Origin: Nitrosopumilales archaeon
GTDB taxonomy: Archaea; Thermoproteota; Nitrososphaeria; Nitrososphaerales; Nitrosopumilaceae
NCBI GenBank assembly: GCA_016838795.1
Contig: JAEHKQ010000073.1
Location: forward strand, 1-26,499
DNA length: 26,499 bases
Direction: 5' to 3'
Of this stretch, positions 1 to 12,294 are shown in pieces. The position numbers and the translations under genes were made by a program. Every line of letters begins with the position of its first letter. Position 1 is the first letter of the stretch. Below the pieces are notes generated by a model that saw only the letters and a program-made list of their open reading frames with translations, ran no database searches and had not been told where the DNA came from.

Positions 1-442
1 GTTTTGTGTTGATTGTTGAGTAACTCATCTCCTTAATCAAGTCTTTTAGTTTTGGATTTTCCATCCACATTCCACGTTGTCTTTGTTTTGAAAATGCTTC
101 AAGTCTTGTTTCGTTATCTACTGCATACACTGATTCTCTACCTGGATGTGTAGTTAGTATCCAACCAGTTACATCGGTACAGTATGTAGTTTTGAAAACT
201 TGCCTTGCTGCTAAAATCATTAATCTTAGAATGTTATCCTGATAGATTTTTTCCCAGAATGGTATCCATGTGATGTTTCTTTCCTGTCCATCTACCATCC
301 GTCTTATTTTTAATGTCCAATCAACAAGATTCATTCCACGATAATCTGGAATCTTTGTAAGTTGTTTTGTACTACGTCTATTTTTAGCAATAATCTTTTT
401 TGCAATTTTTTCATGTTCTTTTGCCGACCTACTAAATGACAT
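1..442 (-). CDS. Putative phage terminase large subunit (GpA-like ATPase), N-terminal 147 codons; runs off the window edge
   Basis: Not in the ORF track; translated by hand from ATG 442, which overlaps the upstream TGA (TGATG): MSFSRSAKEHEKIAKKIIAKNRRSTKQLTKIPDYRGMNLVDWTLKIRRMVDGQERNITWIPFWEKIYQDNILRLMILAARQVFKTTYCTDVTGWILTTHPGRESVYAVDNETRLEAFSKQRQRGMWMENPKLKDLIKEMSYSTINTK. It has a hydrophobic strand + RQxxKT Walker-A-like motif, an upstream 'W..R' and 'PF/Y..I' segment, and a downstream 'Y......AFSK.R......NP.L' segment, all as in GpA-type terminases. Confidence 0.7.
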   Translation of the reverse strand, partial: MSFSRSAKEHEKIAKKIIAKNRRSTKQLTKIPDYRGMNLVDWTLKIRRMVDGQERNITWIPFWEKIYQDNILRLMILAARQVFKTTYCTDVTGWILTTHPGRESVYAVDNETRLEAFSKQRQRGMWMENPKLKDLIKEMSYSTINTK

Positions 443-915
443 CAAGTGTCATCACCCATTTTTTTGTTCAAGTCAACGTAAACATCATAGGTGGGATAAC
501 TCACAGTCTCAAATTTTATGGAAGTCAGCTCAGCCAGACGCTTTGTTTGTTTATCTCTCAACCTAAGATATTTTTCTAAATCCTTAAAATTACCAGATTC
601 ATCAAGTTGCTTAATCTTTTCATCTACTTTGTCGATTTGTTTTTGTTCAGATAATATTAAATGATCAAAAGCAATAATTTTTCTTTCTTTTGCTTCTTTG
701 GATCTTTCTAAAAATTCTTTTGACTCTGATTGTACGATTTCACGGCACCACTGTTTAAACCGTTTCCTGATAGTTTTCACATCCATCCCGGTTTGCACCG
801 AAGCTGATGAAGCTCCTATCCCTAGGGTAAAGTAGGGTCGTAGTTTTCTATCAATGTCAATTTGTTCTTGTATTGTTGGTCTACCACGATTGTGTTTGTT
901 ATCGTTGCTGTGCAA
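442..915 (-). CDS. HTH + coiled-coil protein, putative terminase small subunit
   Basis: 157 aa, TTG start. N-terminal GRP + helix-turn-helix-like segment (ASSASVQTGMDVKTIRKRFKQW) followed by a charged coiled coil. Translationally coupled to the terminase-large-like ORF. The terS call rests on architecture and position. Confidence 0.5.
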   Translation of the reverse strand: MHSNDNKHNRGRPTIQEQIDIDRKLRPYFTLGIGASSASVQTGMDVKTIRKRFKQWCREIVQSESKEFLERSKEAKERKIIAFDHLILSEQKQIDKVDEKIKQLDESGNFKDLEKYLRLRDKQTKRLAELTSIKFETVSYPTYDVYVDLNKKMGDDT

Positions 916-1164
916 TTTCCACCAGAAATAACGGAGAAGTTGCTTAAACGTATTGAAAGTTACTAAATTAAAAAAATTGTTAAAAATTTAATAAAAAACT
1001 AAATACTCATATAGAAGTGGTTTTTGCAAATGTCCAAAAAAGATCACCTTATGTAATTTCATTTTTTTATTTTCAGACCATTTACGACCATTTTTTTGAA
1101 TTCACAGAATATTATTGCCTAAAACAAATACCCTAAATTACAACCAAAATTAATCTGGCATACC

Positions 1165-1983
1165 TTGAAAAAAATAGCATTACTTGGTTGCGGTGCAATA
1201 GGAACACAAATAGCATTAGCAATCGATTCCGGTAAAATTCCAGCCAAACTGACTCATGTTTATGACCAATCAAAAGAGGCATCTCAATCACTCGTTTCCA
1301 AATTACAAAATAAACCAGATATCGTTGAAAACTCGCACCTCTTATCATCTCAACCAATTGATTTGGTGGTAGAAGCAGCATCTCAAGACGCTGTTATGGA
1401 TGTTGCTCTCAGTGTTCTTCAGAATAGGAAAGATCTAATGATAATGAGTGTTGGTGCATTACTCGACGAATCAGTTTTTGAGGTTTTATCTGACGCCTGT
1501 AAAGAATTCAAAAAAACAATTTACCTTCCTTCAGGTGCAATAGCAGGTCTTGACGCATTAAAATCTGTTCAAAGTGAGCTTGAATCAGTTACACTAACAA
1601 CTACAAAAAATCCAAAATCACTCAAAGGAGCAAAGTTTTTTGAAACTTCTGATATTGATGTAGAAAAAATAAATGAAAAAACAACAATTTTTGAAGGAAC
1701 CTCAAAGGATGCAGTAAAATTATTTCCAGCAAACATCAACGTAGCAGCATTACTTAGTTTGGCAGGCTTGGGAAGTGAAAAAACCAAGGTGCGAATTGTT
1801 GCAGATCCTAACACAAACAAAAACACCCACGAAATTCATGCTGAAGGAAAGTTTGGAAAAATGTCTTTCAAAATAGAAAATATTCCAGATGAGAATAATC
1901 CAAAAACAAGTAGGCTAGCTATGTTGTCTGCGATACAAAGACTACGACAAATCTGCTCAGATGACATACAGATTGGTACTTGA
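1165..1983 (+). CDS. nadX: L-aspartate dehydrogenase (NAD biosynthesis)
   Basis: Rossmann GCGAIG, VVEAAS, SVGAL, PSGAIAGLDAL, FPANINVAA and NPKTS motifs; adjacent to nadA. Confidence 0.95.
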   Translation: MKKIALLGCGAIGTQIALAIDSGKIPAKLTHVYDQSKEASQSLVSKLQNKPDIVENSHLLSSQPIDLVVEAASQDAVMDVALSVLQNRKDLMIMSVGALLDESVFEVLSDACKEFKKTIYLPSGAIAGLDALKSVQSELESVTLTTTKNPKSLKGAKFFETSDIDVEKINEKTTIFEGTSKDAVKLFPANINVAALLSLAGLGSEKTKVRIVADPNTNKNTHEIHAEGKFGKMSFKIENIPDENNPKTSRLAMLSAIQRLRQICSDDIQIGT

Positions 1984-1985
1984 TT

Positions 1986-2000
1986 TGGCAAAATTTGCCA
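1986..2000. promoter_or_regulatory. Perfect 15-bp palindrome TGGCAAA-A-TTTGCCA between nadX and nadA; possible operator
   Basis: 7-bp inverted repeat read directly from the sequence; function inferred. Confidence 0.3.
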
Positions 2001-2074
2001 TAGATGCGCAAGTTACAGAAATTATGTGCATGATCCTCTTTCTTTAAATCCAGATTAAATCAAATTTGTAATGT

Positions 2075-3013
2075 TTGAGTCTACACAACGAAATTTTGAG
2101 ACTGAAGAAGGAAAAGGACGTAGTGATTCTTGCGCACAACTATCAAGTGCCCGAAGTACAAGATGTGGCCGATTTTATTGGTGATTCGTTAGGATTGGCA
2201 AGACAAGCAGCTAAAACACCTCACAAAACAATTCTGTTTTGTGGTGTACACTTTATGGCAGAAACTGCTGTAATTATCAGTCCAAAGAAAAAAGTTTTGA
2301 TTCCTGATTTAGAAGCTGGATGTTCACTATCTGACTCAATTACAGTTGATGATCTAAGAGAGTGGAAAAAACAACATCCAAGCGCAATAGCAGTAGGATA
2401 TGTTAACACAACTGCTGACATCAAAGCAGAGCTTGATTATTGTTGTACCTCATCTAATGCGGTTAATATAGTAAAAGCAATTCCTGAAGACAAGGAGATT
2501 TTGTTTTTACCTGATATGTTTTTGGGTGCTTATATTTCTAAAATGACTGGACGAAAGAACATGTTAATTTGGGCCGGTGAATGTCATGTTCACGCTGGCA
2601 TTAAACCGGAGGACGTTCAGCAAAAACTTGATTCAATGACAAACGCTGAATTTATTGTACATCCTGAATGCAGCTGTACCACGCCATATCTCTATGATGT
2701 CGCAACAGGTGGCTATAATGGAAGACAGGTTCAAATTTTATCGACAGAAGGCATGATGAAGTATGTTAACCAATCAAATGCAACCCAGTTTGTTATTGCG
2801 ACTGAAACCGGCATCTTATACCGAATGAGAAAACAAAATCCTGATAAGACATTTATTCCAGCTTCTGAAAAAGCTGAATGCCAATATATGAAGATGATTA
2901 CACTGCAAAAAGTACATGATTCTCTTATGGAAGACAAGTATGAAGTTAAAGTTCCAAAAGAAACTGCTGACAAAGCTCGTCTCGCCATAGAAAGAATGCT
3001 CGCAATTAGTTAA
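2075..3013 (+). CDS. nadA: Quinolinate synthase A
   Basis: ILAHNYQ, GDSL, FCGVHFMAE, AGCSL, YVNT, CCTSSNA, CHVH, HPEC and CQYMK motifs. Confidence 0.97.
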   Translation: MSLHNEILRLKKEKDVVILAHNYQVPEVQDVADFIGDSLGLARQAAKTPHKTILFCGVHFMAETAVIISPKKKVLIPDLEAGCSLSDSITVDDLREWKKQHPSAIAVGYVNTTADIKAELDYCCTSSNAVNIVKAIPEDKEILFLPDMFLGAYISKMTGRKNMLIWAGECHVHAGIKPEDVQQKLDSMTNAEFIVHPECSCTTPYLYDVATGGYNGRQVQILSTEGMMKYVNQSNATQFVIATETGILYRMRKQNPDKTFIPASEKAECQYMKMITLQKVHDSLMEDKYEVKVPKETADKARLAIERMLAIS

Positions 3014-3083
3014 ACTGAACTTAATTCCTCACAAATTCTTTAAGTACAATTACGACTTGCTGTTGTGTGTTGATTTTTAATTA

Positions 3084-4052
3084 ATGGAAATAATGGGCCG
3101 TGGATTCAAGCAAATCATGCACGAGTCTCCAATGTATTTTCATATGGGACTAAAGTACGCAGGATACAAGCTGTTTAACAAAAAAAGTCCATTTTTTGGC
3201 TCAGCTGACATCATCAATGTCTGTAATTTGCACTGCAAACACTGCTATTGGTGGCTAAACCGAAAAGAGAATGAAGACCTAACAGTTGAACAATGGAAAA
3301 AAGTAATTGATGAGAAATTCAAAAAACAACACGTTTTCATCGTGTTTCTTGTTGGTGGTGAACCTATGATGAGGCCTGAAGTTGTTGAGCTTTTTGTAAA
3401 CGAGTTTCCAAAACGAGTTTGTGTGGTAACAAATGGAACTTATCCACTACCCAAATTCAAGAATCTCTATTTTTATTGGGTTTCAATTGATGGAACACAA
3501 AAAATACACGATGATATCAGAGGGAAAGGTACTTGGGAGCAAATCAGAAAAAATGTAATCAATTATGTTGAGACTAATGGGAAAAAGGCGTCCAAAGATA
3601 TCTGGATATCCATGACAATCAACTCACTAAACTACAAAACAGTCAAAGATGTAATGGAAGAATGGCGAGACTATACGCACAAGTTTGGCATTCAATTCCA
3701 CACTCCTTTCATGAAAGGTGATCCATTGTGGCTTCCATTTGGTAAGGAACGAAACAGATTGGTTGATGAATTAATTGAGATGCGGCAAAACGGATACAAA
3801 GACTATCTCAGCAATCCCCAAAACCAGCTTGAATTAATGAAAGGAGGTTGGGGTGGTAAAGGAACGACCCCAATTGATTGTCCAACCTGGGCAATTGTTT
3901 CTGTTGATCATATGGGAAGAGAAAAGATGCCTTGTTGCATTGGTAGTGCAGATAAAGATTCTATGAAACCAAGATGTGGAGAGTGTGGTCTTGGTTGTTA
4001 TTCATTTCTAATGAGCTATGGAATCAAAGGATCTGGAATGATCTCAAACTAG
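3084..4052 (+). CDS. Radical SAM protein with Cys-rich C-terminal (SPASM/twitch-like) extension; substrate unknown
   Basis: CNLHCKHC (CxxxCxxC), GGEP, VTNG, VSIDG....HD.IRG; C-terminal CP...CC...CGECGLGC. Confidence 0.9.
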   Translation: MEIMGRGFKQIMHESPMYFHMGLKYAGYKLFNKKSPFFGSADIINVCNLHCKHCYWWLNRKENEDLTVEQWKKVIDEKFKKQHVFIVFLVGGEPMMRPEVVELFVNEFPKRVCVVTNGTYPLPKFKNLYFYWVSIDGTQKIHDDIRGKGTWEQIRKNVINYVETNGKKASKDIWISMTINSLNYKTVKDVMEEWRDYTHKFGIQFHTPFMKGDPLWLPFGKERNRLVDELIEMRQNGYKDYLSNPQNQLELMKGGWGGKGTTPIDCPTWAIVSVDHMGREKMPCCIGSADKDSMKPRCGECGLGCYSFLMSYGIKGSGMISN

Positions 4053-4135
4053 ATTATCTTTTAAATTTATTTTATAAAGAATGTAAGTATGAAACATTCG
4101 AATAGGTTAAATACCAAAATTGCAAGTGAACAGCA

Positions 4136-6025
4136 TTGAAAGATCATCTAATTAACAAAATTATCTTACTGGTAGGTATTATTGCTGTTTTAGGCGTTGC
4201 TAGCTCTTCAGTAGTTTTATCTTCACCCGCATCCGCTCAAAAGGGACCCGAGTTTATTCCAGGAAGATTCATCATTGTTTTGCAAGATGGGGTATCACCT
4301 CAAGATGTGATACGGGGTTATGGAGTTGTGCCAGACTTTGTTTATAGTCATGCGTTAAATGGATTTTCTGCTCCAATTTCCGCCACACTTCTAAAAGACC
4401 TAACACAGGATTCTAGAATAAAGTTTATCGAACAAGACCAGAGGGTATACGCTTTTGACCAAACCATTCCGACTGGAATAAACCGTATTGATGCCGACAT
4501 AGGCGCTGCTAAATCGGGCGATGGTTCTGGAACAGTTATTGTAGATATTGCAATAATTGATACTGGAATAGATCTTAATCATCCAGACCTGAATGTTGTT
4601 AATGATGTAAGCTTTGTTGGTACATCCTCAGGTGATGATGACAACGGTCATGGAAGTCATGTTGCAGGTACGGCAGCAGCTCTGGATGATGCTGTTGGTG
4701 TAGTTGGTGTTGCCCCTGGTGCAAGACTATGGGCAGTTAAGGTGCTCGACAGTGGGGGTGGTGGAACTCTTTCAGGTGTAATAAAAGGAATAGATTATGT
4801 CACTTCACATGCAGGTGAAATCGAAGTTGCAAACCTTAGCCTTGGATGTAAATGCAAGACTAGAGCTGGGGATATTGCAATTAATAACTCAGTTTCAGCT
4901 GGAGTTACTTATTCTGTAGCAGCTGGAAATAGTGCAAGTAATGCAAAGGCATTTTGGCCAGCAAGTAACAACAAGGTCATTACAGTATCAGCCATTGTAG
5001 ACACTGATGGAAAATGTGGCGGACTTGGTTCATCAACATCATATGGTGCAGATGACTCTTTTGCAACTTTTAGTAATTTTGGTAATTCTGTGAACCTAGC
5101 AGCACCAGGTGTTGATATTCTCTCAACTGACAAGAATGGTGGCTATACCACTAAAAGTGGTACAAGTATGGCAAGTCCCCATGTCGCTGGAGCAGCAGCT
5201 ATATACAAGTTTAACAATCCAAGTGCATCGCCATCTGATGTTCAAAATGCATTAATTAGTTTTGGAGTGGAACAATCTGCTCAATGTAATGTTTTACTAA
5301 ATGATGGTAATGGTGGATATACAGACGAAGATGGTTCATCATCTGAACCGCTTGTTTATCTTGCTCAAGGAACCCCACCTGTTACTACACCCGACTTCTC
5401 CCTCTCTGTGGACCCTACTTCCCTAACACTCAAGGTAGACGAGACAGGCACATCAACCATTACAGTAAGTAGCCTAAATGGGTATGAAGACACAGTATCC
5501 CTAAGTGCTACAGCACCTGATACATCAGGCCTCATACTAACGGTGAATCCAACTTCTGTCACACTTACATCAACAACCATATCAGCGGCATCCACATTAA
5601 GCGTAATAGCCGGCAGCGCTACAGGCACCTTCGACGTTACAGTGACTGGCACAGGCAGCGGGATCACACACTCAACAACAGTGACCGTCAAGGTCACGTC
5701 AACCTCCGAGGCGAACACCGTCAGTGTTAGCTCCATTACTTACGCTACTGAAGGCGGCAAGAACAAGGATAAGCACCTGCTCATTACTGTTGCCCTCGAA
5801 GATGATCTAAGCAACCCGGTAAGCGGCGCATCAGTATCTATAGACCTTTCCCGCGATGGTAGTTTTGTGGGCTCTGGAACGGGAACTACAGGCACTGACG
5901 GAACAGTAACATTCAGTTTAAAGAATGCAAAGTCCGGTTGCTACACTACTACTGTAACTGATGTAACCGCAAGTGGTCTGACATGGGATGGTACAACTCC
6001 ACTTACTGATCCTTTCTGCAAATAA
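4136..6025 (+). CDS. Secreted subtilisin-like S8 serine peptidase with I9-type propeptide and C-terminal Thr/Ser-rich Ig-like domains
   Basis: Signal/TM N-terminus; catalytic IIDTGID, HGSHVAG, AAGN and GTSMASPHVAG; beta-rich C-terminal extension. Confidence 0.95.
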   Translation: MKDHLINKIILLVGIIAVLGVASSSVVLSSPASAQKGPEFIPGRFIIVLQDGVSPQDVIRGYGVVPDFVYSHALNGFSAPISATLLKDLTQDSRIKFIEQDQRVYAFDQTIPTGINRIDADIGAAKSGDGSGTVIVDIAIIDTGIDLNHPDLNVVNDVSFVGTSSGDDDNGHGSHVAGTAAALDDAVGVVGVAPGARLWAVKVLDSGGGGTLSGVIKGIDYVTSHAGEIEVANLSLGCKCKTRAGDIAINNSVSAGVTYSVAAGNSASNAKAFWPASNNKVITVSAIVDTDGKCGGLGSSTSYGADDSFATFSNFGNSVNLAAPGVDILSTDKNGGYTTKSGTSMASPHVAGAAAIYKFNNPSASPSDVQNALISFGVEQSAQCNVLLNDGNGGYTDEDGSSSEPLVYLAQGTPPVTTPDFSLSVDPTSLTLKVDETGTSTITVSSLNGYEDTVSLSATAPDTSGLILTVNPTSVTLTSTTISAASTLSVIAGSATGTFDVTVTGTGSGITHSTTVTVKVTSTSEANTVSVSSITYATEGGKNKDKHLLITVALEDDLSNPVSGASVSIDLSRDGSFVGSGTGTTGTDGTVTFSLKNAKSGCYTTTVTDVTASGLTWDGTTPLTDPFCK

Positions 6026-6068
6026 TAAAGAAATTTTTTCTCTCAATTTCAATTCTGAATTAACATTT

Positions 6069-6085
6069 GATACGAACTGTTAACA
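6069..6085 (+). repeat. 17-bp direct repeat GATACGAACTGTTAACA, copy 1
   Basis: Exact match to 9180-9196; both copies are intergenic. Confidence 0.9.
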
Positions 6086-6126
6086 GATGTTATGAAATAT
6101 TTATGATGACTTATTATGATTAATTT

Positions 6127-7317
6127 TCATTCAATTTTTTGTTCTAATATTTTACTATGAGATATTATGTAACGACCTAATACGACTCCTAATATTCCAG
6201 CTGCAATTAATGGACCTACCAACAACGAATATGAGGAAATCATTATCTCTGAATATACAGGCGCAATTAAGCTGGGGAAGACAGTTGTATGTGTTACCAC
6301 ACCATTATAGACGTAGGTAATGAACGGATAATAGACCATAAATGAACAACTACCAAGGACTCCACCTGCTACATATTGTAAGGATTTTGTTTTAGAATAT
6401 GAAAGAATTGTATCAGCAACAACAAATGGGATTATGCTAAGAAAATAAAATGAAATCGTTGGAACAAGAAATTCATTTGGTATCATAGTTGTTAATATGC
6501 TAATTAAGAGGAAAGCGGCTCCCGTGATAGACAAGATACCAAATCTGTAATTCAGCCCATAAGAAAGATAAAGAATTGTAGATAACAACAATGGAAAACC
6601 TATAGTTGCAAAAATAGCAGCAAAAGTTGGATCAGGATTAAAGTCAAAACTTTGAGTATCAGAAAATGGCAGACTAAACATGTATAGTACTCCAGTTGCA
6701 GTAAGCCATAGAGACAATATTCCTATTATACTTAACAGATTATCCATACCAAGCAAGACGACGCTTTGTTTTGGTTTTCCCTCTTGTTCAATTTGGTTTC
6801 CTCCCTTTTGTGATGTTAGCAAAGGTGAATAATTTCTAGCAGAAACAAGTCCAGATAATGCACCTATACTTGCTAGAAAAAGTCCAAATGTCAGAGTAAT
6901 ATGAGATGGGCTTAGCAAACCATCTAAACCAAAAGCTACATGCCAAGTATAGTCAAAAGGACCAGCTATGACCACCATTGAAATTCCAATAATGACTAAC
7001 CTCATGGGAAGTTTGAATTTCCCCTGATTAGCAAAGGATCGTTTACCAACAAACATAATCACTGAGCCTAGAGCGGCAACACCAACTCCGGTGTATAACA
7101 TCAAGTGAGGAGTAGAAAAAAAAGTTTCAGGTTTATTGATAAGATGGTTTGTTATATCCCAGCTTTCACCACTTAAAGTCAGCAAAACGCCAAGACTTAT
7201 CAAAATACATCCAATCTTAAATTTTAATTTAGAACGCCGATACTTTTCTTCATCTAACGTAGTTTGAGTGCTTTCTTCAGCAGAACCGCTACTGGTGTCT
7301 GACGTGCGAGAGCTCAT
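6127..7317 (-). CDS. Polytopic membrane protein (~10 TM) with two AmoC/PmoC-like D-x3-H-x12-H motifs and an AmoA/PmoA-like C-terminal half
   Basis: D54-H58-H71 (WDITNHLINKPETFFSTPH) and D122-H126-H139 (FDYTWHVAFGLDGLLSPSH); C-terminal PFVVADTILSYSKTKSLQYVAGGVLG...YYP. The CDS itself is solid; the family call is inferred. Confidence 0.6.
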   Translation of the reverse strand: MSSRTSDTSSGSAEESTQTTLDEEKYRRSKLKFKIGCILISLGVLLTLSGESWDITNHLINKPETFFSTPHLMLYTGVGVAALGSVIMFVGKRSFANQGKFKLPMRLVIIGISMVVIAGPFDYTWHVAFGLDGLLSPSHITLTFGLFLASIGALSGLVSARNYSPLLTSQKGGNQIEQEGKPKQSVVLLGMDNLLSIIGILSLWLTATGVLYMFSLPFSDTQSFDFNPDPTFAAIFATIGFPLLLSTILYLSYGLNYRFGILSITGAAFLLISILTTMIPNEFLVPTISFYFLSIIPFVVADTILSYSKTKSLQYVAGGVLGSCSFMVYYPFITYVYNGVVTHTTVFPSLIAPVYSEIMISSYSLLVGPLIAAGILGVVLGRYIISHSKILEQKIE

Positions 7318-7353
7318 CTTGTTGTTTTATCACCTCTTTAGCACCTTTAACAA

Positions 7354-7956
7354 TTAGGGTTCGGTCACATTTACAGAATATGCTTTCACAAATTCCCTTT
7401 GATAATCTATTAACCCATCAGATGGGAAATGCGATAAATCATCTGTGTGTGGAAGACCTACTGATTTTACAAAAAACACAAACCTGCCTGGTTCTTCTGG
7501 AGTTACTTTTAGTCCAAGATGATAAGTTGCATTTGATTCCCACGGTCTGCCATAAGCTTCGATGGCTGGGTACTGAGCAGTTATTGTATCGTCAGAACTC
7601 GCATAATCATAATGAATTTCATCACCGACTTGAATTAAAAAAGGTGACTGGGGAAAATCATATTTTGTTATTTGAACAAAACCTTCCGTCTGAGTTAGAT
7701 TTAGAAACGCTACCGATACTGTCTGGTGGTCAGCAGAATCTCCAGTATTTGTTGCAGTAATTTCGATATCAAAAGAGTTTCCAAAGTGGATCATTGATTC
7801 TGAAATCTTTACTTCCGAAAGAAAAGGGATTGGTCTTGGTATTTTCAATGATTGGTAGAAATCTGGCAGATAGAAAACTGACAAAGCAAAATAAAATGTT
7901 AAAGAGGCAACGATGGCAACGGCAATTATAATAGTTTTATTGCTGGCAGTTATCAT
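7354..7956 (-). CDS. Membrane-anchored exported beta-sandwich (Ig/CARDB-like) protein
   Basis: N-terminal TM/signal (IIIAVAIVASLTFYFALSVF); alternating beta-strand patterns (FDIEITATNTG, YHLGLKVTPEEPGRFVFFVKS). Ends 36 bp upstream of the 396-aa gene on the same strand. Confidence 0.7.
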   Translation of the reverse strand: MITASNKTIIIAVAIVASLTFYFALSVFYLPDFYQSLKIPRPIPFLSEVKISESMIHFGNSFDIEITATNTGDSADHQTVSVAFLNLTQTEGFVQITKYDFPQSPFLIQVGDEIHYDYASSDDTITAQYPAIEAYGRPWESNATYHLGLKVTPEEPGRFVFFVKSVGLPHTDDLSHFPSDGLIDYQREFVKAYSVNVTEP

Positions 7957-7991
7957 TTCACGATAAAAGAATCAAGGCAAACAACTATTAT

Positions 7992-8009
7992 TTGTAATTT
8001 TTATTACAA
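7992..8009. promoter_or_regulatory. Perfect inverted repeat TTGTAAT-TTTT-ATTACAA upstream of 7956(-); possible operator
   Basis: 7-bp arms, 4-nt spacer, 36-53 nt upstream of the start codon. Confidence 0.35.
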
Positions 8010-8129
8010 TTTATCAAGGTGGCATCGTAGCCACAGGATCTGGGTCCAGCAAGGTTCCGATTAAGAATCTATTTAAACTTTGAGCAATGTTATCAGAAAA
8101 TGTAGGAAATTATAATCAACTTTAGAATC

Positions 8130-9149
8130 ATGAGTATGGTTGACTTGATTTTCTTTACAAGTCCTATAGGTCTTGGTCATGCTACAAGAGATGTTGCTAT
8201 TTCACAAAATCTTGATGACGTTTCTAAAAAATTTGTGAGTGGTAAAGGAGCTTCTGAACTTCTTTCAGCGTATGGATTTGATACAAAGGACGTTTACGAT
8301 CCACCCCTTTTTGACGTTGAAAAGGGATCACTTCAAAGGCCGTTAAAATGGTTGCTCAAATACTATCAATATTATAAAGAATGTAAAAGGATTTCAAAGC
8401 AAATACTAGAGAACGAAAGGCCACGCATGGTCGTAAGTGATGAGGATTTTGCATCATTGAGTGTAGCTCAAGGAAAAAAACTAAAAACAATTCTAATTAC
8501 AGATGTCTTACAAACAAAATTCACGACTGGACTTGCTTCTCTAGTCGAAAAAAAGATGAATCGTTCTATGAAGGATATAATGAAAAGATGTGATTATGTA
8601 ATACTTCCAGAAAGAGGGCCGAACGAGGACAACATAATTAGAGCTGGTCCTATTGTCAGACCGACTAACCATTCAAGAAATGAGCTTCGAAGATTGTTTT
8701 CATTTGATAAAAAAACCATAGTTGTAAGCATTGGCGGAACTGATGCAGGCAAATTTTTAATTGAAAAAACAATTGAAGCTTTTAAGAAATTGAAAACTGA
8801 CGTAGATTTAGTTGTAGTCGCAGGTCCATCGTTTCAAATTCGGAGCGACAATGTTCGAAATCTTGGGTTTGTGAACAATTTGCATGAGGTAATCTATGCT
8901 TCAGACCTTATAATTTCACTTGCGGGAAAATCTACGATAGACGAATCAAAAGCATATGGAACACCTGGCATTTTTATTCCCATAAAAGGTCATTTTGAAC
9001 AAGAGGATAACGCAAAAGAAGAAGGTTTTTCGTACAACGACATCTTTCGTTTAGATTCTTTAATATCAAACAAGTTAAACGAAAGTAGAAGAGCGGTAAC
9101 TTCGGATGGTGCAAAAAGAGCAGCTGAAATCATAAAAAACAATCTTTAA
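8130..9149 (+). CDS. GT-B fold glycosyltransferase, family 28 / MurG-like C-terminal domain
   Basis: GLGHATRD, SIGGTDAG, AGKSTIDE and GHFEQEDNA motifs. Confidence 0.85.
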   Translation: MSMVDLIFFTSPIGLGHATRDVAISQNLDDVSKKFVSGKGASELLSAYGFDTKDVYDPPLFDVEKGSLQRPLKWLLKYYQYYKECKRISKQILENERPRMVVSDEDFASLSVAQGKKLKTILITDVLQTKFTTGLASLVEKKMNRSMKDIMKRCDYVILPERGPNEDNIIRAGPIVRPTNHSRNELRRLFSFDKKTIVVSIGGTDAGKFLIEKTIEAFKKLKTDVDLVVVAGPSFQIRSDNVRNLGFVNNLHEVIYASDLIISLAGKSTIDESKAYGTPGIFIPIKGHFEQEDNAKEEGFSYNDIFRLDSLISNKLNESRRAVTSDGAKRAAEIIKNNL

Positions 9150-9179
9150 CCTTTGCCTTTTTTATTAAAAATTACGTTC

Positions 9180-9196
9180 GATACGAACTGTTAACA
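9180..9196 (+). repeat. 17-bp direct repeat GATACGAACTGTTAACA, copy 2; includes part of the dyad GTTCG-ATA-CGAAC (9176-9188)
   Basis: Exact match to 6069-6085. Confidence 0.9.
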
Positions 9197-9218
9197 TGTC
9201 AAAATTAATTGTGAACAT

Positions 9219-9226
9219 TTTATAAA
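9219..9226 (+). promoter_or_regulatory. Archaeal TATA box (TTTATAAA) for a leaderless transcript starting near ATG 9250
   Basis: Consensus TATA about 24 nt upstream of the ATG. Confidence 0.6.
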
Positions 9227-9249
9227 GTCCAAAAAAAGATCAAAACCAC

Positions 9250-9412
9250 ATGACCGATTCTGATGAGGTCGCACAAGGCCAAATGGTTAAAGAATATGTT
9301 GGCAATGCCAAGAAATTCTACGATCATTTAGAAAATTGTGAGTCCTAAATGTCACAAAAATACTCAATCTAATGGAGAATGTGAATGCTCTATCTGTGGC
9401 AATGGTTACTAA
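9250..9412 (+). pseudogene. Small Cys-rich (zinc-finger-like) gene interrupted by a frameshift at 9343-9348
   Basis: MTDSDEVAQGQMVKEYVGNAKKFYDHLENCES* (9250-9348) continues in the +1 frame as PKCHKNTQSNGECECSICGNGY* (9344-9412). The stop overlaps the convergent nadC stop. Confidence 0.6.
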
Positions 9413-10227
9413 ACCTCTAAACTAAGATCAATTCCGCGAACAGAATTTGTAATTTGACCTACTGAAATCATATCAACTCCAGCCCTAGCAAAACTTTGAA
9501 TGTTCTTTTCAGTTATTCCACCAGACGCTTCAAGCTTTACTTTATTTCTCAAACCTAATTTCTTTAACGCAATAATGGTTTTTGAGATATCTTTTGGTGT
9601 AAAGTTGTCAAGCATAATTATTGTCGCTCCAGCTTTAGTAGCAAAAATTGCATCTTTCTGATTTTCAACTTCAACCTCTACTTTCTTGTGTTTTCGTTTT
9701 GCTTTTTTCACTAATTCTTCAAGAGAACCTCCTACAGAAAGATGATTGTCCTTTAGCATGACCATTTGGTCAAGAGCCATTCTATGCTTTTCACCACCAC
9801 CAATCTTTACAGCTTCCTTATCAAAAAATCGTAATCCAGGTGCAGTTTTCCTCGTAGCAAAAAGCTTTGCTCTGAGATTAGGAATTTTTTTTACAAGATC
9901 ATTTGTTTGAGTCGCAATGCCACTCATTCTTGCAAGTAAATTTAGTGCAGTTCTTTCACATGAAAGAATTGCTTGTGGCGTCCCAACTATCTCAAGAATT
10001 GTTTGGTTTGGTTTAATTTTGGTTCCATCTTTTTTTAAAATACGAACTCTGCATCTTTTTAATACAAAAATCTCCTTGGCGTATTTAACGCCTGCAAGAA
10101 CAGCACTTTGTCGTGAAATTATTCTGGCCTTTATCTTCGTTCTTGGTAAGAGTGCACTGGAAATGTCTCCCTTTCCTAAATCTTCAGCTAAAAATCGTAA
10201 AAGCTCTTTTTTTGGACTAAAGTCCAA
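9409..10227 (-). CDS. nadC: Nicotinate-nucleotide pyrophosphorylase (quinolinate phosphoribosyltransferase)
   Basis: EDLGKGD, ERTALN, TRKTAPG, HR..L...VMLKDNH, EVEV, IMLDN, EASGGI and ISVG motifs. Confidence 0.97.
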   Translation of the reverse strand: MDFSPKKELLRFLAEDLGKGDISSALLPRTKIKARIISRQSAVLAGVKYAKEIFVLKRCRVRILKKDGTKIKPNQTILEIVGTPQAILSCERTALNLLARMSGIATQTNDLVKKIPNLRAKLFATRKTAPGLRFFDKEAVKIGGGEKHRMALDQMVMLKDNHLSVGGSLEELVKKAKRKHKKVEVEVENQKDAIFATKAGATIIMLDNFTPKDISKTIIALKKLGLRNKVKLEASGGITEKNIQSFARAGVDMISVGQITNSVRGIDLSLEV

Positions 10228-10228
10228 C

Positions 10229-10417
10229 TTATGTTACCCTTAGTGCGTATTTCCCTTTCTCAGTTATTCCCAAAGTTCTAGCGATTTGAGAATTTGATGG
10301 ATCAACTACAATTGCTATTCCACTCCAATCGGGTGTAAGATCTGATGATTTACAATTTGCACATACTTTTCCAACATTGACACGTTTGCATTTCCTACAT
10401 GCCATCTCTCGAACCAT
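10229..10417 (-). CDS. spt4: Transcription elongation factor Spt4 (RpoE'')
   Basis: ACRKCK...CANC, W.G, KYALRV; immediately downstream of rpoE'. Confidence 0.95.
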   Translation of the reverse strand: MVREMACRKCKRVNVGKVCANCKSSDLTPDWSGIAIVVDPSNSQIARTLGITEKGKYALRVT

Positions 10418-10418
10418 A

Positions 10419-11042
10419 TTACTTCTCCTTTACTTGTACAACCTTTTCTTGTTTTTTTGTTTTTTTGTCTGACTTTGGTTGTTTTTCTGAATCTTCAGAC
10501 TTTTTGATTTCTTCTGCAATCCATTCATCCGCACCCAAATATGGTTGCCTACACGTGATTCCAATTTTTCCCATAGTTGCTGCCTTTCCTAGTGATACAG
10601 CAGTTATTCTAGAACGAATAGTAGAACCGACTCGAAGTGTTTTACCACTTTCATTGGCAATTATCATCCCAGACTTGACGTCACTTTTCAGATATTCATC
10701 CATTACTTGAGATAAGTGTAACAATGCATCGGTTGGTCCAATTCTAACGAAAGCACCAAAGTCAGTAATGTCAACAATTTCTCCTTGAATGATTTCTTGA
10801 AGTTTTGGATAGAATGTAAGTGCGTCAAATTCAACTTTGTGGAATGTGCCACCATTTCCTGGTATCATTTTTCCCATTTCCTCTACTTTGGCATCCAAGA
10901 TCATAATGATATAGCCTAAATCTGTATTGATCATGCTTTCGTATTTTTCCTTGAGAATGTTAACAGCGGCTTTTTTTAGCGCGGTGCCAAATAAGGTAGG
11001 TGGTATCCTAACCACATCAACAAGAGTAGATATAGAAAACAA
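10419..11042 (-). CDS. rpoE1: DNA-directed RNA polymerase subunit E' (Rpo7)
   Basis: VRIPP, S1 domain (GEIVDITDFGAFVRIGPTDALLHLSQV), KIGITCRQPYLG. Start moved to TTG 11042 because the ORF-track extension to 11108 is not Rpo7-like. Confidence 0.95.
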   Translation of the reverse strand: MFSISTLVDVVRIPPTLFGTALKKAAVNILKEKYESMINTDLGYIIMILDAKVEEMGKMIPGNGGTFHKVEFDALTFYPKLQEIIQGEIVDITDFGAFVRIGPTDALLHLSQVMDEYLKSDVKSGMIIANESGKTLRVGSTIRSRITAVSLGKAATMGKIGITCRQPYLGADEWIAEEIKKSEDSEKQPKSDKKTKKQEKVVQVKEK

Positions 11043-11162
11043 CTTTGTACTCAAAATGACGGATTTGAATTTATGAATCTTTGGATAATTTTTGATAAAT
11101 TTTATCATTGAATCTGATTATTCTTCAATTATTCTCAAATTTTTGAAATTGAGCGACCTATC

Positions 11163-11170
11163 TTTAAATA
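11163..11170 (+). promoter_or_regulatory. TATA box (TTTAAATA) of the mrp gene
   Basis: 23 nt upstream of ATG 11194. Confidence 0.55.
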
Positions 11171-11193
11171 TTGTATGTCGACCTTTTTCTAGC

Positions 11194-12294
11194 ATGGTTG
11201 GTGTTGATCAAGTTCTTGAGAAACTGAGTACTGTAATTGATCCTGATTTGAAAAAGGACATCGTATCCATGGGGATGATCAAGGATTTAGAATTAAACAG
11301 TGGTGATCTTAAATTTACACTCGAACTTACTACACCAGCATGTCCATTCAATGCTGAGATTGAAGAGGATGTTAGGAAGGTAATTGGCGAAATATCAGAC
11401 ATCAAAAACTTTGACATGAGTATTACCGCCAAGGTCATGGAAGGTCGTTCACTAGACGCTGACACTGGTATGGCCACGGTAAAAAATATTATCGGTGTCG
11501 CAAGTGGCAAAGGCGGAGTTGGAAAATCAACTGTTTCACTTAATTTAGCACTCGCATTATCTACTACTGGCGCTAAGGTCGGTCTTTTGGATGCTGACAT
11601 CTATGGGCCCACCATCCCTTTGATGCTGGGAATGAAAGATGGTTCCATGGAAGTCGTGGACAACAAACTACAACCAGCCGACTCACATGGGATCAAGGTT
11701 GTCTCTTTTGGCTTTTTTGCGCAGGAGAATCAACAAGCAGCAATTTATCGAGGACCAATAATTTCCGGAATACTAAAACAATTTTTGGTCGATACAAATT
11801 GGTCTAATTTAGATTATCTAATAGTAGATCTTCCACCAGGAACTGGAGATATTCCATTGACTCTAGCTCAAACAATTCCAATTACTGGAATACTAGTTGT
11901 AACCACTCCGCAAGAGGTTGCAAGTAATGTTGCAGTAAAAGCGGTTGGCATGTTTAACAAACTGAATGTTCCAATCATTGGTGTTGTAGAAAATATGAGT
12001 CACTTTATCTGTTCAAAGTGTGATGAAAAACATTACATCTTTGGAGAAGGTGGCGCAAAAAAGATTAGTGAACAATTCAACATACCATTCATTGGAGAAA
12101 TCCCATTACATTCTAGTATAATGTCCGGTTCCGATACTGGAAAACCAATCATTCTTACTGATCCTAATTCCGTAAGTTCCGAAGCATTTAGAAGCTCTGC
12201 AAAAAATCTTGCCGCCCAGTGTAGTATAATTGCAGCCAAATTACAAGAAGAGATTGTGGCAGAGGCACCTAGTTCATCTACTCCTGCCAACTAA
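11194..12294 (+). CDS. mrp: Mrp/NBP35 (ApbC) Fe-S cluster carrier ATPase with N-terminal DUF59-like domain
   Basis: DPDL..DIVSMG, TTPACP, SGKGGVGKST, LDADIYGP, DLPPGTGD, VTTPQ, ENMS.F.C..C. Start placed at ATG 11194 (MVGVDQ), downstream of a TATA box. Confidence 0.95.
   Translation: MVGVDQVLEKLSTVIDPDLKKDIVSMGMIKDLELNSGDLKFTLELTTPACPFNAEIEEDVRKVIGEISDIKNFDMSITAKVMEGRSLDADTGMATVKNIIGVASGKGGVGKSTVSLNLALALSTTGAKVGLLDADIYGPTIPLMLGMKDGSMEVVDNKLQPADSHGIKVVSFGFFAQENQQAAIYRGPIISGILKQFLVDTNWSNLDYLIVDLPPGTGDIPLTLAQTIPITGILVVTTPQEVASNVAVKAVGMFNKLNVPIIGVVENMSHFICSKCDEKHYIFGEGGAKKISEQFNIPFIGEIPLHSSIMSGSDTGKPIILTDPNSVSSEAFRSSAKNLAAQCSIIAAKLQEEIVAEAPSSSTPAN

What the first reader, a model, noticed from the sequence alone, without database searches (positions are those of the whole stretch)
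1..915. Terminase small/large-like gene pair directly abutting core NAD genes, with no integrase or att site between
Seen: an ORF missed by the track (442 to <1) with GpA-terminase-like motifs is coupled by TGATG to an HTH/coiled-coil gene, and only about 250 bp separate them from nadX. Bases 1-60 have 18/60 G+C, no higher than the host background. Established: head-tail proviruses occur in Thaumarchaeota but few are known, and integrated proviruses are usually bounded by an integrase/att site rather than by the packaging genes. Inference: this may be a truncated provirus, a domesticated GTA-like packaging module, or an unusually organised element.
Basis: partly seen in the sequence, partly recalled or inferred. 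Interest (0 to 1): 0.65.

Follow-up and report, generated by a model that had tools for sequence, protein, structure and literature searches.

The report
Orphan terminase gene pair beside nadX
The left end of this ammonia-oxidising archaeon's contig carries a virus-type DNA-packaging enzyme pair (small and large terminase). In related genomes the same pair stands alone, intact and under selection, often at this same chromosomal spot, with no other virus genes. It therefore looks like a retained working module, not a cut-off provirus.

Summary
Bases 1-442 (-) encode the first 147 residues of a large terminase (TerL). Its ATG overlaps the TGA stop of a 157-aa HTH/coiled-coil gene (445-915, -). 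nadX starts 249 bp further on. The truncation is only a contig end: base 1 is the first base of contig C73 of a 297-contig MAG.

Full-length TerL (628-629 aa) exists in other samples, and one copy matches the fragment 147/147.

In 13 of 201 Nitrosopumilaceae genomes sampled, the same two genes occur as a stand-alone cassette with a conserved upstream control region. No portal, capsid or nearby integrase was found. In at least five other genomes, including Ca. Nitrosopumilus salarius BD31, the cassette sits exactly here, between nadX and NurA-HerA-Mre11-Rad50. Four of six same-genus genomes examined have that empty site.

TerL keeps every ATPase and nuclease residue and has dN/dS of about 0.1. 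Related TerLs in IMG/VR viruses do sit beside portal and capsid genes.

Only one such case is published (NitKor-E1, called enigmatic). First readers of this scan noted the pair twice on other DNA.

Function is inferred, not shown: probably a packaging enzyme that acts on capsids of infecting viruses. What follows TerL in this genome could not be seen.

The parts
1..442 (-). 5' part of the large terminase gene (TerL). It covers the first 147 codons, including Walker A (AARQVFKTT), and runs off the contig end.
   Evidence: ORF. phrog_38 E 4e-7 and phrog_675 E 1.8e-6. 147/147 identical to full-length P0003, 628 aa. The AF2 model of P0003 matches T4 gp17, Sf6 gp2, D6E and HK97 TerL at probability 1.00.
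442..915 (-). TerS-like gene: 157 aa, an N-terminal GRP-x-K-x-EQ motif plus HTH, then a long helical hairpin. TTG start at 915-913; the TGA stop at 444-442 overlaps the TerL ATG by one base.
   Evidence: Homologues lie directly upstream of TerL, often overlapping it, in 15 further loci. The same family precedes TerL plus portal in two viral contigs, L082 and L093. AF2 pLDDT 84. No significant fold match.
950..958 (-). Upstream box C (TTTCAATAC), 43 nt before the TerS-like start.
   Evidence: Found in 7 of 27 upstream regions against 0.007 expected per 300 nt.
1000..1007 (-). Upstream box B (AGTATTTA; TGTATTTA in relatives), 92 nt before the start.
   Evidence: Found in 10 of 27 upstream regions against 0.02 expected per 300 nt.
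1078..1092 (-). Upstream box A, a direct repeat AATGG-N5-AATGG one helical turn apart. Candidate operator or recognition site of the HTH protein.
   Evidence: The strict form occurs 73-240 nt upstream, on the same strand, in 12 of 28 loci, against 6 other copies in 382 kb. The relaxed form occurs in 16 of 27 loci against 0.012 expected per 300 nt. It is not enriched before terminase genes of 80 viral contigs.
1093..1164 (+). nadX promoter-proximal region. It is of the type seen in cassette-bearing G049 (CTAAATTACAA), not the ACTAGAATTAATTACAAGAAAT box of the four same-genus genomes aligned here, which lack the cassette at this site.
   Evidence: 95% DNA identity to the closest relative G072 begins exactly at base 1164.
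1165..1983 (+). nadX (aspartate dehydrogenase), the host gene flanking the cassette.
   Evidence: Pfam Asp_DH_C E 1.9e-35 and NAD_binding_3 E 5.9e-18. Present in all 7 genomes of the genus.

Best explanation
SHOWN: The window starts inside a two-gene terminase cassette, a TerS-like HTH protein followed by TerL, that is cut only by the contig end. It belongs to a family of stand-alone cassettes resident in Nitrosopumilaceae chromosomes. Each cassette has the same two translationally coupled genes and a conserved upstream region of about 200 bp (boxes A, B and C). No portal, capsid or adjacent integrase was found, and the flanks are housekeeping genes. One recurrent site is exactly this one, between nadX and the NurA-HerA-Mre11-Rad50 operon. 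TerL keeps its Walker A Lys, its Walker B Asp-Glu and three nuclease aspartates. It folds as a complete large terminase and evolves under purifying selection, so it is a working enzyme rather than a decaying provirus. INFERRED for this genome: the rest of TerL and then NurA follow beyond base 1. INFERRED mechanism, about 0.35 on its own: the cassette is a virus-derived packaging motor kept by the host, or by a minimal hitch-hiking element, that acts in trans when a related head-tailed virus infects. The HTH subunit would bind its own sites, with the AATGG repeats as candidates. TerL would cut DNA and feed it into the invader's procapsids. The result would be either sabotage of virus packaging (defence) or export of the adjacent chromosomal DNA (satellite-like or lateral-transduction-like spread).
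For: The contig end is at base 1. Full-length intact TerL occurs in at least 11 variants at 93-97% identity, one of them identical to the fragment. Only TerS-like and TerL are shared between 6 and then 20 chromosomal loci. The nadX | TerS-TerL | NurA-HerA-Mre11-Rad50 arrangement occurs in G049, G169, G085, Ca. N. salarius BD31 and a CG_4_9 MAG. The same-genus genomes G090, G106 and G053 have nadX directly beside NurA, and G072 differs only by an inserted TPR gene. G000's NurA and HerA lie on C188, and NurA is cut at a contig end. The catalytic residues are invariant across 11 and then 35 sequences. The TerL model has pLDDT 85, and its top 43 PDB matches are all large terminases. dN/dS is 0.09-0.14 for TerL and 0.17-0.42 for TerS, against 0.04-0.18 for the flanking genes, and TerL identity tracks that of the flanks. 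The viral portal profile A2 was found in 1 of 201 genomes, which is not a cassette genome. The capsid profile A3 was found in 0 of 201. PF05065 and PF04860 were found in 0 of 5 cassette genomes, four of them 99% complete, with positive controls. Integrases are not near the cassettes. Flanks are housekeeping genes, sometimes with defence-type genes such as HEPN, GmrSD and Fic. Relatives in 45 of 80 IMG/VR contigs are followed by a portal, and some also by an MCP. Chromosomal TerLs fall in one clade with SH-aLRT 99, apart from 60 viral TerLs. The upstream boxes are specific to the chromosomal cassettes. G+C equals that of the host.
Against: The window's TerL is a very long branch, about 40% identical to all others, so it may have a separate history. 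Five 'viral' contigs, one of them a complete 77.9-kb genome with terminal repeats, nest inside the chromosomal clade, and monophyly of the chromosomal copies is merely not rejected (p-AU 0.22). Capsid and portal proteins diverge fast, so failure to find them is weak evidence. One copy (G169) carries a TGA at the invariant Trp, and fragments exist in other genomes, so loss is ongoing. No expression data exist, no defence-system profile matches (PADLOC), and nothing here tests the proposed action on helper capsids. The TerS assignment rests on position and architecture only.
Confidence: 0.55

Rival explanations
1. Ordinary head-tailed provirus. In this lineage the terminase genes open a full structural module that lies beyond the contig end, and nadX simply marks one edge of the integrated virus.
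For: TerL relatives in IMG/VR are followed by portal and capsid genes. The window's TerL is a long, separate branch. The MAG is only 85% complete, and viral regions often fail to assemble or bin.
Against: The same site holds the bare pair in five other genomes. The window's TerS, TerL and upstream boxes A-C belong to the chromosomal type, not the viral type. No portal or MCP profile matches anywhere in G000. G+C equals that of the host.
Confidence: 0.12
2. Host DNA-repair accessory. The terminase ATPase-nuclease has been recruited to work with the NurA-HerA-Mre11-Rad50 end-resection machinery encoded directly downstream on the same strand.
For: The order TerS-TerL-NurA-HerA-Mre11-Rad50 on one strand occurs in G049 and G169, and TerS-TerL-NurA where the contig ends in Ca. 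N. salarius, G085 and the CG_4_9 MAG. The gaps are about 170-180 bp in three of them. TerL divergence tracks that of these genes.
Against: Most cassettes lie at other loci next to unrelated housekeeping genes. Three same-genus genomes have the G000-type repair operon beside nadX with no cassette. The NurA promoter-like sequence is kept between TerL and NurA. Distribution is patchy (13 of 201), unlike a repair function.
Confidence: 0.12
3. Inert relic of past provirus integration, as proposed for NitKor-E1. The two genes are simply the last to decay.
For: This is the published reading of the only described case (PMC6563490). One copy has a nonsense codon, and C-terminal or N-terminal fragments exist in several genomes.
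Against: dN/dS is about 0.1 at dS of 0.8-1.4. All catalytic residues are invariant at 34-42% overall identity. The same two genes are retained at several independent loci with a conserved non-coding control region. The clade is distinct from viral TerLs.
Confidence: 0.07
4. Packaging module of a dispersed gene-transfer agent whose head and tail genes lie elsewhere in the chromosome.
For: Intact, selected terminase without replication or integration genes. GTA-like domestication has been suggested for other thaumarchaeal head-tail elements (PMC6563490).
Against: Portal and MCP profiles from the related viruses, together with Pfam Phage_capsid and Phage_portal, find nothing in cassette genomes, four of which are 99% complete.
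Confidence: 0.07
5. Assembly or binning chimera. A viral fragment was wrongly joined to the host contig at 916-1164.
For: The MAG is highly fragmented, and contigs break inside TerL and inside NurA.
Against: The same nadX-TerS junction occurs in independent assemblies, including Ca. N. salarius BD31. The window's exact TerS protein is on record from other contigs. No contig-end overlaps suggest a repeat-mediated join. The contig breaks fit strain heterogeneity at a variable locus.
Confidence: 0.02

Closest known systems
NitKor-E1 of Ca. Nitrosopumilus koreensis AR1 (Krupovic et al. 2019, Environ Microbiol 21:2056, PMC6563490)
   Same: A Nitrosopumilus chromosome carrying TerS directly upstream of TerL with no other head-tail virus gene. 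The authors called its function enigmatic and noted that terminase had not been seen in non-viral elements.
   Different: NitKor-E1 is a single case, described inside an integrase-bearing cryptic element with VapBC and a restriction endonuclease, and read as a probable relic. Here the pair is a recurrent two-gene cassette in 13 of 201 genomes (11 genera). There is no nearby integrase, the flanks are housekeeping genes, insertion sites recur, the upstream region is conserved and selection is purifying. I could not test whether the AR1 TerL belongs to the same clade.
Terminases of uncultured marine and soil head-tailed viruses of ammonia-oxidising archaea (IMG/VR contigs; 126 relatives found)
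   Same: The same TerL family (33-39% identity), the same motifs and the same two-domain fold. Two viral contigs also carry the same TerS-like family upstream.
   Different: In the viruses, TerL is followed by portal, scaffold-like and Mu GpT-type capsid genes. Most use other small-subunit families and lack upstream boxes A-C. The chromosomal copies form a separate clade.
Phage satellites that bring their own packaging specificity (SaPI/PICI TerS, PICMI, cf-PICI, PLE)
   Same: Chromosomal elements that lack a full virion gene set and redirect a helper virus's packaging machinery by encoding terminase subunits.
   Different: These satellites are bacterial. They carry integrase, replication and regulatory genes, and they usually encode TerS only, or TerS and TerL together with capsid genes (cf-PICI). 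Here there are only two genes, and neither excision nor replication functions were seen. No satellite of an archaeal head-tailed virus is known; only pSSVx and pSSVi, plus the proposed SRCEs, exist for spindle-shaped viruses (bioRxiv 10.1101/2025.02.15.638363).
Gene transfer agents and lateral transduction by in situ pac-site packaging
   Same: A chromosomally resident terminase that could start headful packaging from a fixed chromosomal site and so mobilise neighbouring genes.
   Different: GTAs and lateral-transducing prophages encode their own capsids. None was found here.

Membership tests
Large terminase subunit (TerL) of head-tailed viruses | N-terminal ASCE ATPase with a Walker A Lys and a Walker B Asp-Glu | tested here: met
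   GGRQIFKST (AARQVFKTT in the window's protein; K85/K84) and LDEAQY (D176 E177) are invariant in 11 and in 35 sequences. The Walker A lies inside the window, within bases 1-442.
Large terminase subunit (TerL) of head-tailed viruses | C-terminal RNase H-fold nuclease with three acidic catalytic residues | tested here: met
   D399 (MGVDFGSG), D458 (GDLGYG) and D604 (NHPxDS) are invariant. These lie in the part of the gene beyond the contig end and are seen in P0001 and P0003.
Large terminase subunit (TerL) of head-tailed viruses | Two-domain terminase fold and profile match | tested here: met
   phrog_675 E 1.9e-21. AF2 pLDDT 85.4 and pTM 0.78. Foldseek finds T4 gp17 at 5e-13, then Sf6 gp2, D6E, HK97 and P74-26 TerL and the HCMV nuclease, all at probability 1.00. 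Pfam GpA_ATPase scores only 17 bits, below its cut-off.
Small terminase subunit (TerS) | Gene directly upstream of TerL and coupled to it, in real viruses as well | tested here: met
   Stop and start overlap in the window and in G049, G085, G008, G169 and G054. The same family precedes TerL plus portal in viral contigs L082 and L093.
Small terminase subunit (TerS) | N-terminal DNA-binding HTH plus an oligomerisation domain resembling solved TerS structures | tested here: inconclusive
   The model has an HTH and a long helical hairpin, but there is no Foldseek match at E <= 0.001 in PDB or BFVD and no Pfam or PHROG match. The family also occurs without TerL in four loci.
Integrated head-tailed provirus | Portal and major capsid genes next to the terminase | tested here: not met
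   Not found in any chromosomal locus read or in cassette genomes. For the window itself the downstream DNA is missing, so this is inferred from relatives.
Integrated head-tailed provirus | Integrase and att repeats or a tRNA target at the border | tested here: not met
   The window has no tRNA. No integrase lies near the cassettes in 5 genomes; the only candidate is a sub-threshold match 12 kb away in G054. Comparing filled and empty sites gave no alignable border at this level of divergence.
Gene transfer agent | Host-resident head-tail structural gene cluster under host control | tested here: not met
   No capsid or portal was detected. Tail genes were not searched.
Phage satellite (PICI-like) | Integrase, replication module and helper-responsive regulator around the packaging gene | tested here: not met
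   The flanks are housekeeping genes. No integrase is adjacent. Helper dependence cannot be tested here.
Known anti-virus defence systems (PADLOC-DB v2) | Profile match to a catalogued defence protein | tested here: not met
   No PADLOC hit for TerS, TerL or five neighbouring unknown ORFs.

The most novel reading that the evidence does not exclude
A complete terminase holoenzyme has been domesticated, or reduced to a minimal two-gene hitch-hiker, in ammonia-oxidising archaea. It works without a virus of its own by loading DNA into the procapsids of infecting head-tailed viruses. It would start at its own AATGG-repeat site, blocking virus maturation and/or exporting the neighbouring chromosomal island, here nadX and NurA-HerA-Mre11-Rad50. 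That would be the first satellite-like or defence-like use of a full TerS-TerL pair, and the first such element for archaeal tailed viruses.
Probability: 0.3. Interest if true: 0.85.

Novelty: new variant of a known kind. Interest (0 to 1): 0.62.

Why it matters
Terminase is treated as a hallmark of tailed viruses. Provirus finders and IMG/VR-type pipelines call a region viral when they see it. This analysis points to a lineage of terminase pairs living as ordinary-looking chromosomal genes in one of the ocean's most abundant archaeal families. They are intact, under selection, carry their own conserved control region, and return to the same chromosomal sites in different genera. This has three consequences.

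- It warns against scoring these loci as proviruses.
- It turns a single published oddity (NitKor-E1) into a family that can be studied in cultures that already exist: Ca. N. salarius BD31, Nitrosopumilus sp. Nsub and Ca. N. limneticus.
- It raises a testable question about virus-host conflict or virus-assisted gene transfer in ammonia oxidisers, where neither satellites of tailed viruses nor transduction is known.

Tried and rejected
The contigs that hold full-length copies (P0003 18.7 kb, P0002 21.9 kb, P0013 38.9 kb) therefore could not be read. This was the decisive look leftwards.
- Scans with P0001 alone found nothing in viral contigs or metagenome contigs. The rest of TerL is not in the MAG.
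- The end of C188 and the start of C73 share no overlap.
- PHROGs recognised none of the viral neighbour families. A profile search against PDB for portal and MCP was empty. Their identity rests on ESM Atlas look-alikes scoring 0.96-0.98 and on gene order.
- Foldseek gave nothing significant for the TerS model.
- PADLOC gave no hit.
- blastn between filled sites and the empty G072 site aligned only nadX and NurA, so no att sites or target duplications could be defined.
- A tRNA target was ruled out.
- An apparent 24-nt repeat in G072 that first looked like an att site turned out to be the conserved nadX promoter box, duplicated around a TPR-gene insertion.
- The weak Pfam HEPN_Toprim_N and coiled-coil hits of the TerS-like protein are below cut-off, and I treat them as coiled-coil noise.
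- Monophyly of the chromosomal TerLs could be neither shown nor rejected.
- Counts (28/201 and 30/201) include the unpublished genomes G093, G092 and G077. No sequence-level claim here rests on them.
Full report
**What is in the window**

The window is contig C73 of a 297-contig, 1.2-Mb, 85%-complete MAG, and base 1 is the contig's first base.

On the minus strand an ORF starts at the ATG at 442-440 and runs off that end. Its 147 residues match large-terminase profiles: phrog_38 at E 4e-7 and phrog_675 at E 1.8e-6. Pfam GpA_ATPase matches only below its cut-off.

A 629-aa protein from another sample (P0001) is 97% identical and scores phrog_675 at E 1.9e-21. Its 90%-identity cluster has 16 members, 11 of them full length at 93-97% identity. 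One of these, P0003, is identical to the window's fragment over 147/147 residues. The gene is therefore intact in nature, and the truncation here is an assembly end.

The gene upstream (915-445, 157 aa) ends in a TGA that shares its A with the TerL ATG. It has no Pfam or PHROG match. nadX begins 249 bp further on, at 1165. There is no tRNA and no ORF in between. G+C of the two genes (0.34-0.355) equals that of the genome (0.349).

**Is TerL a real terminase?**

I aligned eleven full-length relatives that are 34-42% identical to P0001. They keep these residues invariant:
- Walker A, GGRQIFKST (Lys85)
- Walker B, LDEAQY (Asp176, Glu177)
- three nuclease aspartates, in MGVDFGSG, GDLGYG and NHPxDS

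The same residues hold in a 35-sequence alignment that includes viral copies.

The AF2 model of P0003 has pLDDT 85.4 and pTM 0.78. All of its top 43 PDB matches are large terminases covering both domains: T4 gp17 at 5e-13, then Sf6 gp2, D6E, HK97, P74-26 and the HCMV nuclease. Among deposited phages the only matches are annotated terminase large subunits at about 22% identity.

**The small gene**

Homologues of the 157-aa protein lie directly upstream of TerL homologues, often overlapping them, in 15 other loci. The same family also precedes TerL plus portal in two viral contigs.

The alignment shows a GRP-x-K-x-EQ motif, an HTH and a long helical region. The AF2 model (pLDDT 84) is an HTH plus a helical hairpin. 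Foldseek finds nothing significant.

I call it TerS-like on position and architecture only. The family also occurs without TerL in four loci.

**The neighbourhood in relatives**

In four same-genus genomes the gene divergent from nadX is NurA, followed by HerA, Mre11 and Rad50. There is no terminase there.

In this MAG, NurA and HerA lie on the 3.1-kb contig C188, with NurA cut at residue 30 by a contig end. So the host synteny nadX | NurA is interrupted in this genome by the terminase pair, and the assembly broke on both sides.

DNA identity to the closest relative (G072, 95%) begins exactly at base 1164.

The 70 bp before nadX are of the type found in G049, a cassette-bearing genome of another genus. 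They are not of the type found in the four same-genus genomes aligned, which lack the cassette at this site. This fits the pair having arrived, or been kept, together with its flank.

**The pair stands alone**

TerL relatives occur in 28 of 201 sampled genomes of the family. Thirteen of these genomes, from 11 genera, hold the full-length type.

I compared 35-kb neighbourhoods in six genomes and then in twenty. Only the two terminase genes are shared.

The order nadX | TerS-TerL | NurA-HerA-Mre11-Rad50 recurs in the following genomes:
- G049 (LejiaB_36_11)
- G169
- G085 (B6T1L6)
- Ca. Nitrosopumilus salarius BD31
- a CG_4_9 Nitrosopumilales MAG, on the NurA side

A second recurrent site, next to an SDR gene and an FeS-assembly/PqqD gene, is shared by three genomes.

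Elsewhere the flanks are housekeeping genes: argininosuccinate lyase, IF-2B, PGI, PRPP synthase, CdvC/Vps4, ThyX, NicO and PurP. Occasional defence-type genes also appear: HEPN_Swt1, GmrSD-EVE-Schlafen, NOV_C and Fic.

Integrases lie on other contigs or far away.

**Relatives in viruses**

IMG/VR holds 126 contigs with TerL at 33-39% identity. In 45 of the 80 fetched, TerL is followed by a protein of about 554 aa. In some it is also followed by a protein of about 400 aa. The ESM Atlas places these among portal proteins (0.98) and Mu GpT/Phage_capsid_4 capsids (0.97-0.98) respectively. PHROGs does not recognise them.

Results of searching for virion genes in the host genomes:

| Query | Result |
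|---|---|
| Viral portal profile (A2) | 1 of 201 family genomes, not a cassette genome |
| Viral capsid profile (A3) | 0 of 201 |
| A2 and A3 against this MAG and every chromosomal locus held | no match in this MAG; the only match among the loci is the same G155 portal hit (L178) |
| Pfam Phage_capsid and Phage_portal | 0 of 5 cassette genomes (four of them 99% complete), positive controls rang |

**Phylogeny and selection**

In a quick IQ-TREE of 77 TerLs, the 12 chromosomal copies fall with five 'viral' contigs in a clade with SH-aLRT 99, apart from 60 viral TerLs.

One of those five contigs belongs to a complete 77.9-kb genome with terminal repeats and no portal of the common type. Real viruses therefore exist inside the clade. 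A single origin of the chromosomal copies is not rejected (p-AU 0.22) but is not shown either. The window's TerL is a very long branch (1.9).

Within the nadX-site group:

| Gene | dN/dS |
|---|---|
| TerL | 0.09-0.14 (at dS 0.8-1.4) |
| TerS | 0.17-0.42 |
| Flanking genes | 0.04-0.18 |

TerL identity follows the same order as nadX and NurA. For example, G049 against the others gives TerL 65-67%, NurA 66-74% and nadX 72%. This fits long co-residence with the flanks.

One copy (G169) has a TGA at the invariant Trp. Short fragments occur in other genomes. Loss is therefore ongoing.

**A conserved control region**

Upstream of the TerS-like gene lie three ordered boxes:
- Box A is the direct repeat AATGG-N5-AATGG, at window 1078-1092.
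- Box B is (T/A)GTATTTA, at 1000-1007.
- Box C is TTTCAA(T/G)AC, at 950-958.

| Box | Upstream regions with it (of 27) | Expected per 300 nt |
|---|---|---|
| A (relaxed form) | 16 | 0.012 |
| B | 10 | 0.02 |
| C | 7 | 0.007 |

Box A also precedes TerS-like genes that lack TerL. It is not enriched before terminase genes in the 80 viral contigs.

**Reading**

Shown:
- This is a stand-alone, intact terminase cassette under selection.
- It has its own control region and recurs at this site.

Inferred for this genome:
- TerL continues beyond base 1 and NurA follows it.

Inferred mechanism:
- A terminase without a capsid can only do its known job on someone else's procapsids.
- It is distantly related to the TerLs of viruses that infect these hosts.
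- It is patchily distributed and sits in variable spots, some beside defence genes.
- I therefore favour action in trans during infection, either as packaging sabotage or as helper-dependent export of neighbouring DNA.
- A role with the adjacent repair operon, a dispersed GTA, a plain relic and, for this genome only, a full provirus beyond the contig end remain as rivals.

**What is known**

Krupovic et al. 2019 (PMC6563490) reported one such pair, NitKor-E1 in Ca. N. koreensis AR1. It lies inside an integrase-bearing cryptic element. They called it enigmatic and a likely relic.

No other paper in the library names it, and phrase searches for orphan or domesticated terminases found nothing.

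No satellite of an archaeal tailed virus is described.

First readers of this scan had already noted an 'orphan terS-terL pair' (e1-2523712) and a TerL disabled by one TGA (e1-2594276) on other DNA. Both agree with what I found.

**Limits**

- Absence of capsid genes rests on sequence profiles.
- No expression or biochemical data exist.
- The tallies include the unpublished genomes G093, G092 and G077, but no sequence-level claim depends on them.

Noticed in passing
L040 (G072:C84) 3858-10205 versus L041 (G090:C74) 1-4991, and G000:C188: Within one genus, the NurA-HerA-Mre11-Rad50 operon next to nadX exists in two deeply divergent versions; HerA is only about 25% identical between them. The G072 type is shared with other genera at about 70%. 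The G090 type is the one in this MAG (95-98%). The locus behaves like a swapped island.
   Followed up: partly
L040 (G072:C84) 10669-11936: A 362-aa TPR-repeat gene is inserted between NurA and nadX. A 10-bp duplication (TATACTGATC) flanks it, and the 24-nt nadX promoter box ACTAGAATTAATTACAAGAAAT is present twice (10606-10628 and 11953-11975).
   Followed up: partly
L070 (G160:C43) 1247-3281; L071 (G109:C14) 9810-11745; also G139, G193, G014, G120 and G063: A second, shorter TerL type (about 515-526 aa, 20-28% identical) occurs, in G160 and G139 preceded by the same TerS-like family. G109 has several copies. I did not examine whether these are proviruses or another orphan cassette type.
   Followed up: no
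L063 (G090:C75) 3626-10822: A same-genus genome has a 604-aa TerL (25% identical) followed by ORFs of 474 and 498 aa. It may be a genuine provirus of this genus.
   Followed up: no
L065 (G008:C51) 1567-2055; L066 (G108:C62) 6603-7031; L067 (G072:C32) 5039-5488; L068 (G199:C151) 10866-11357: TerS-like genes occur without any TerL downstream. Three of the four have the same AATGG-N5-AATGG repeat upstream. The HTH protein and its box may therefore form a wider regulatory pair of mobile or variable loci.
   Followed up: partly
L086 (IMGVR_UViG_3300009103_000015, 77.9 kb, direct terminal repeats): A complete viral genome whose TerL groups with the chromosomal cassettes. It has no portal of the type common in the other viral contigs and may be close to the source of the cassettes.
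   Followed up: partly
L157, L159, L167, L169, L171 and window base 1: MAG and SAG contigs often end inside TerL or within a few hundred bases after it. This suggests strain-level variability or repeats just downstream of the cassette.
   Followed up: no
L162 8331-9320; L048 9270-10241; L160 (ORF upstream of TerS): An unannotated ORF of 323-330 aa with no Pfam or PADLOC match (tested for two of the three copies) sits between nadX and the TerS-like gene in three nadX-site genomes, but not in the window.
   Followed up: partly
L117 (IMGVR_UViG_3300022690_001248): TerL, a small ORF and the portal are repeated in inverted orientation at the contig end. This is probably a fold-back assembly artefact.
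   Followed up: no
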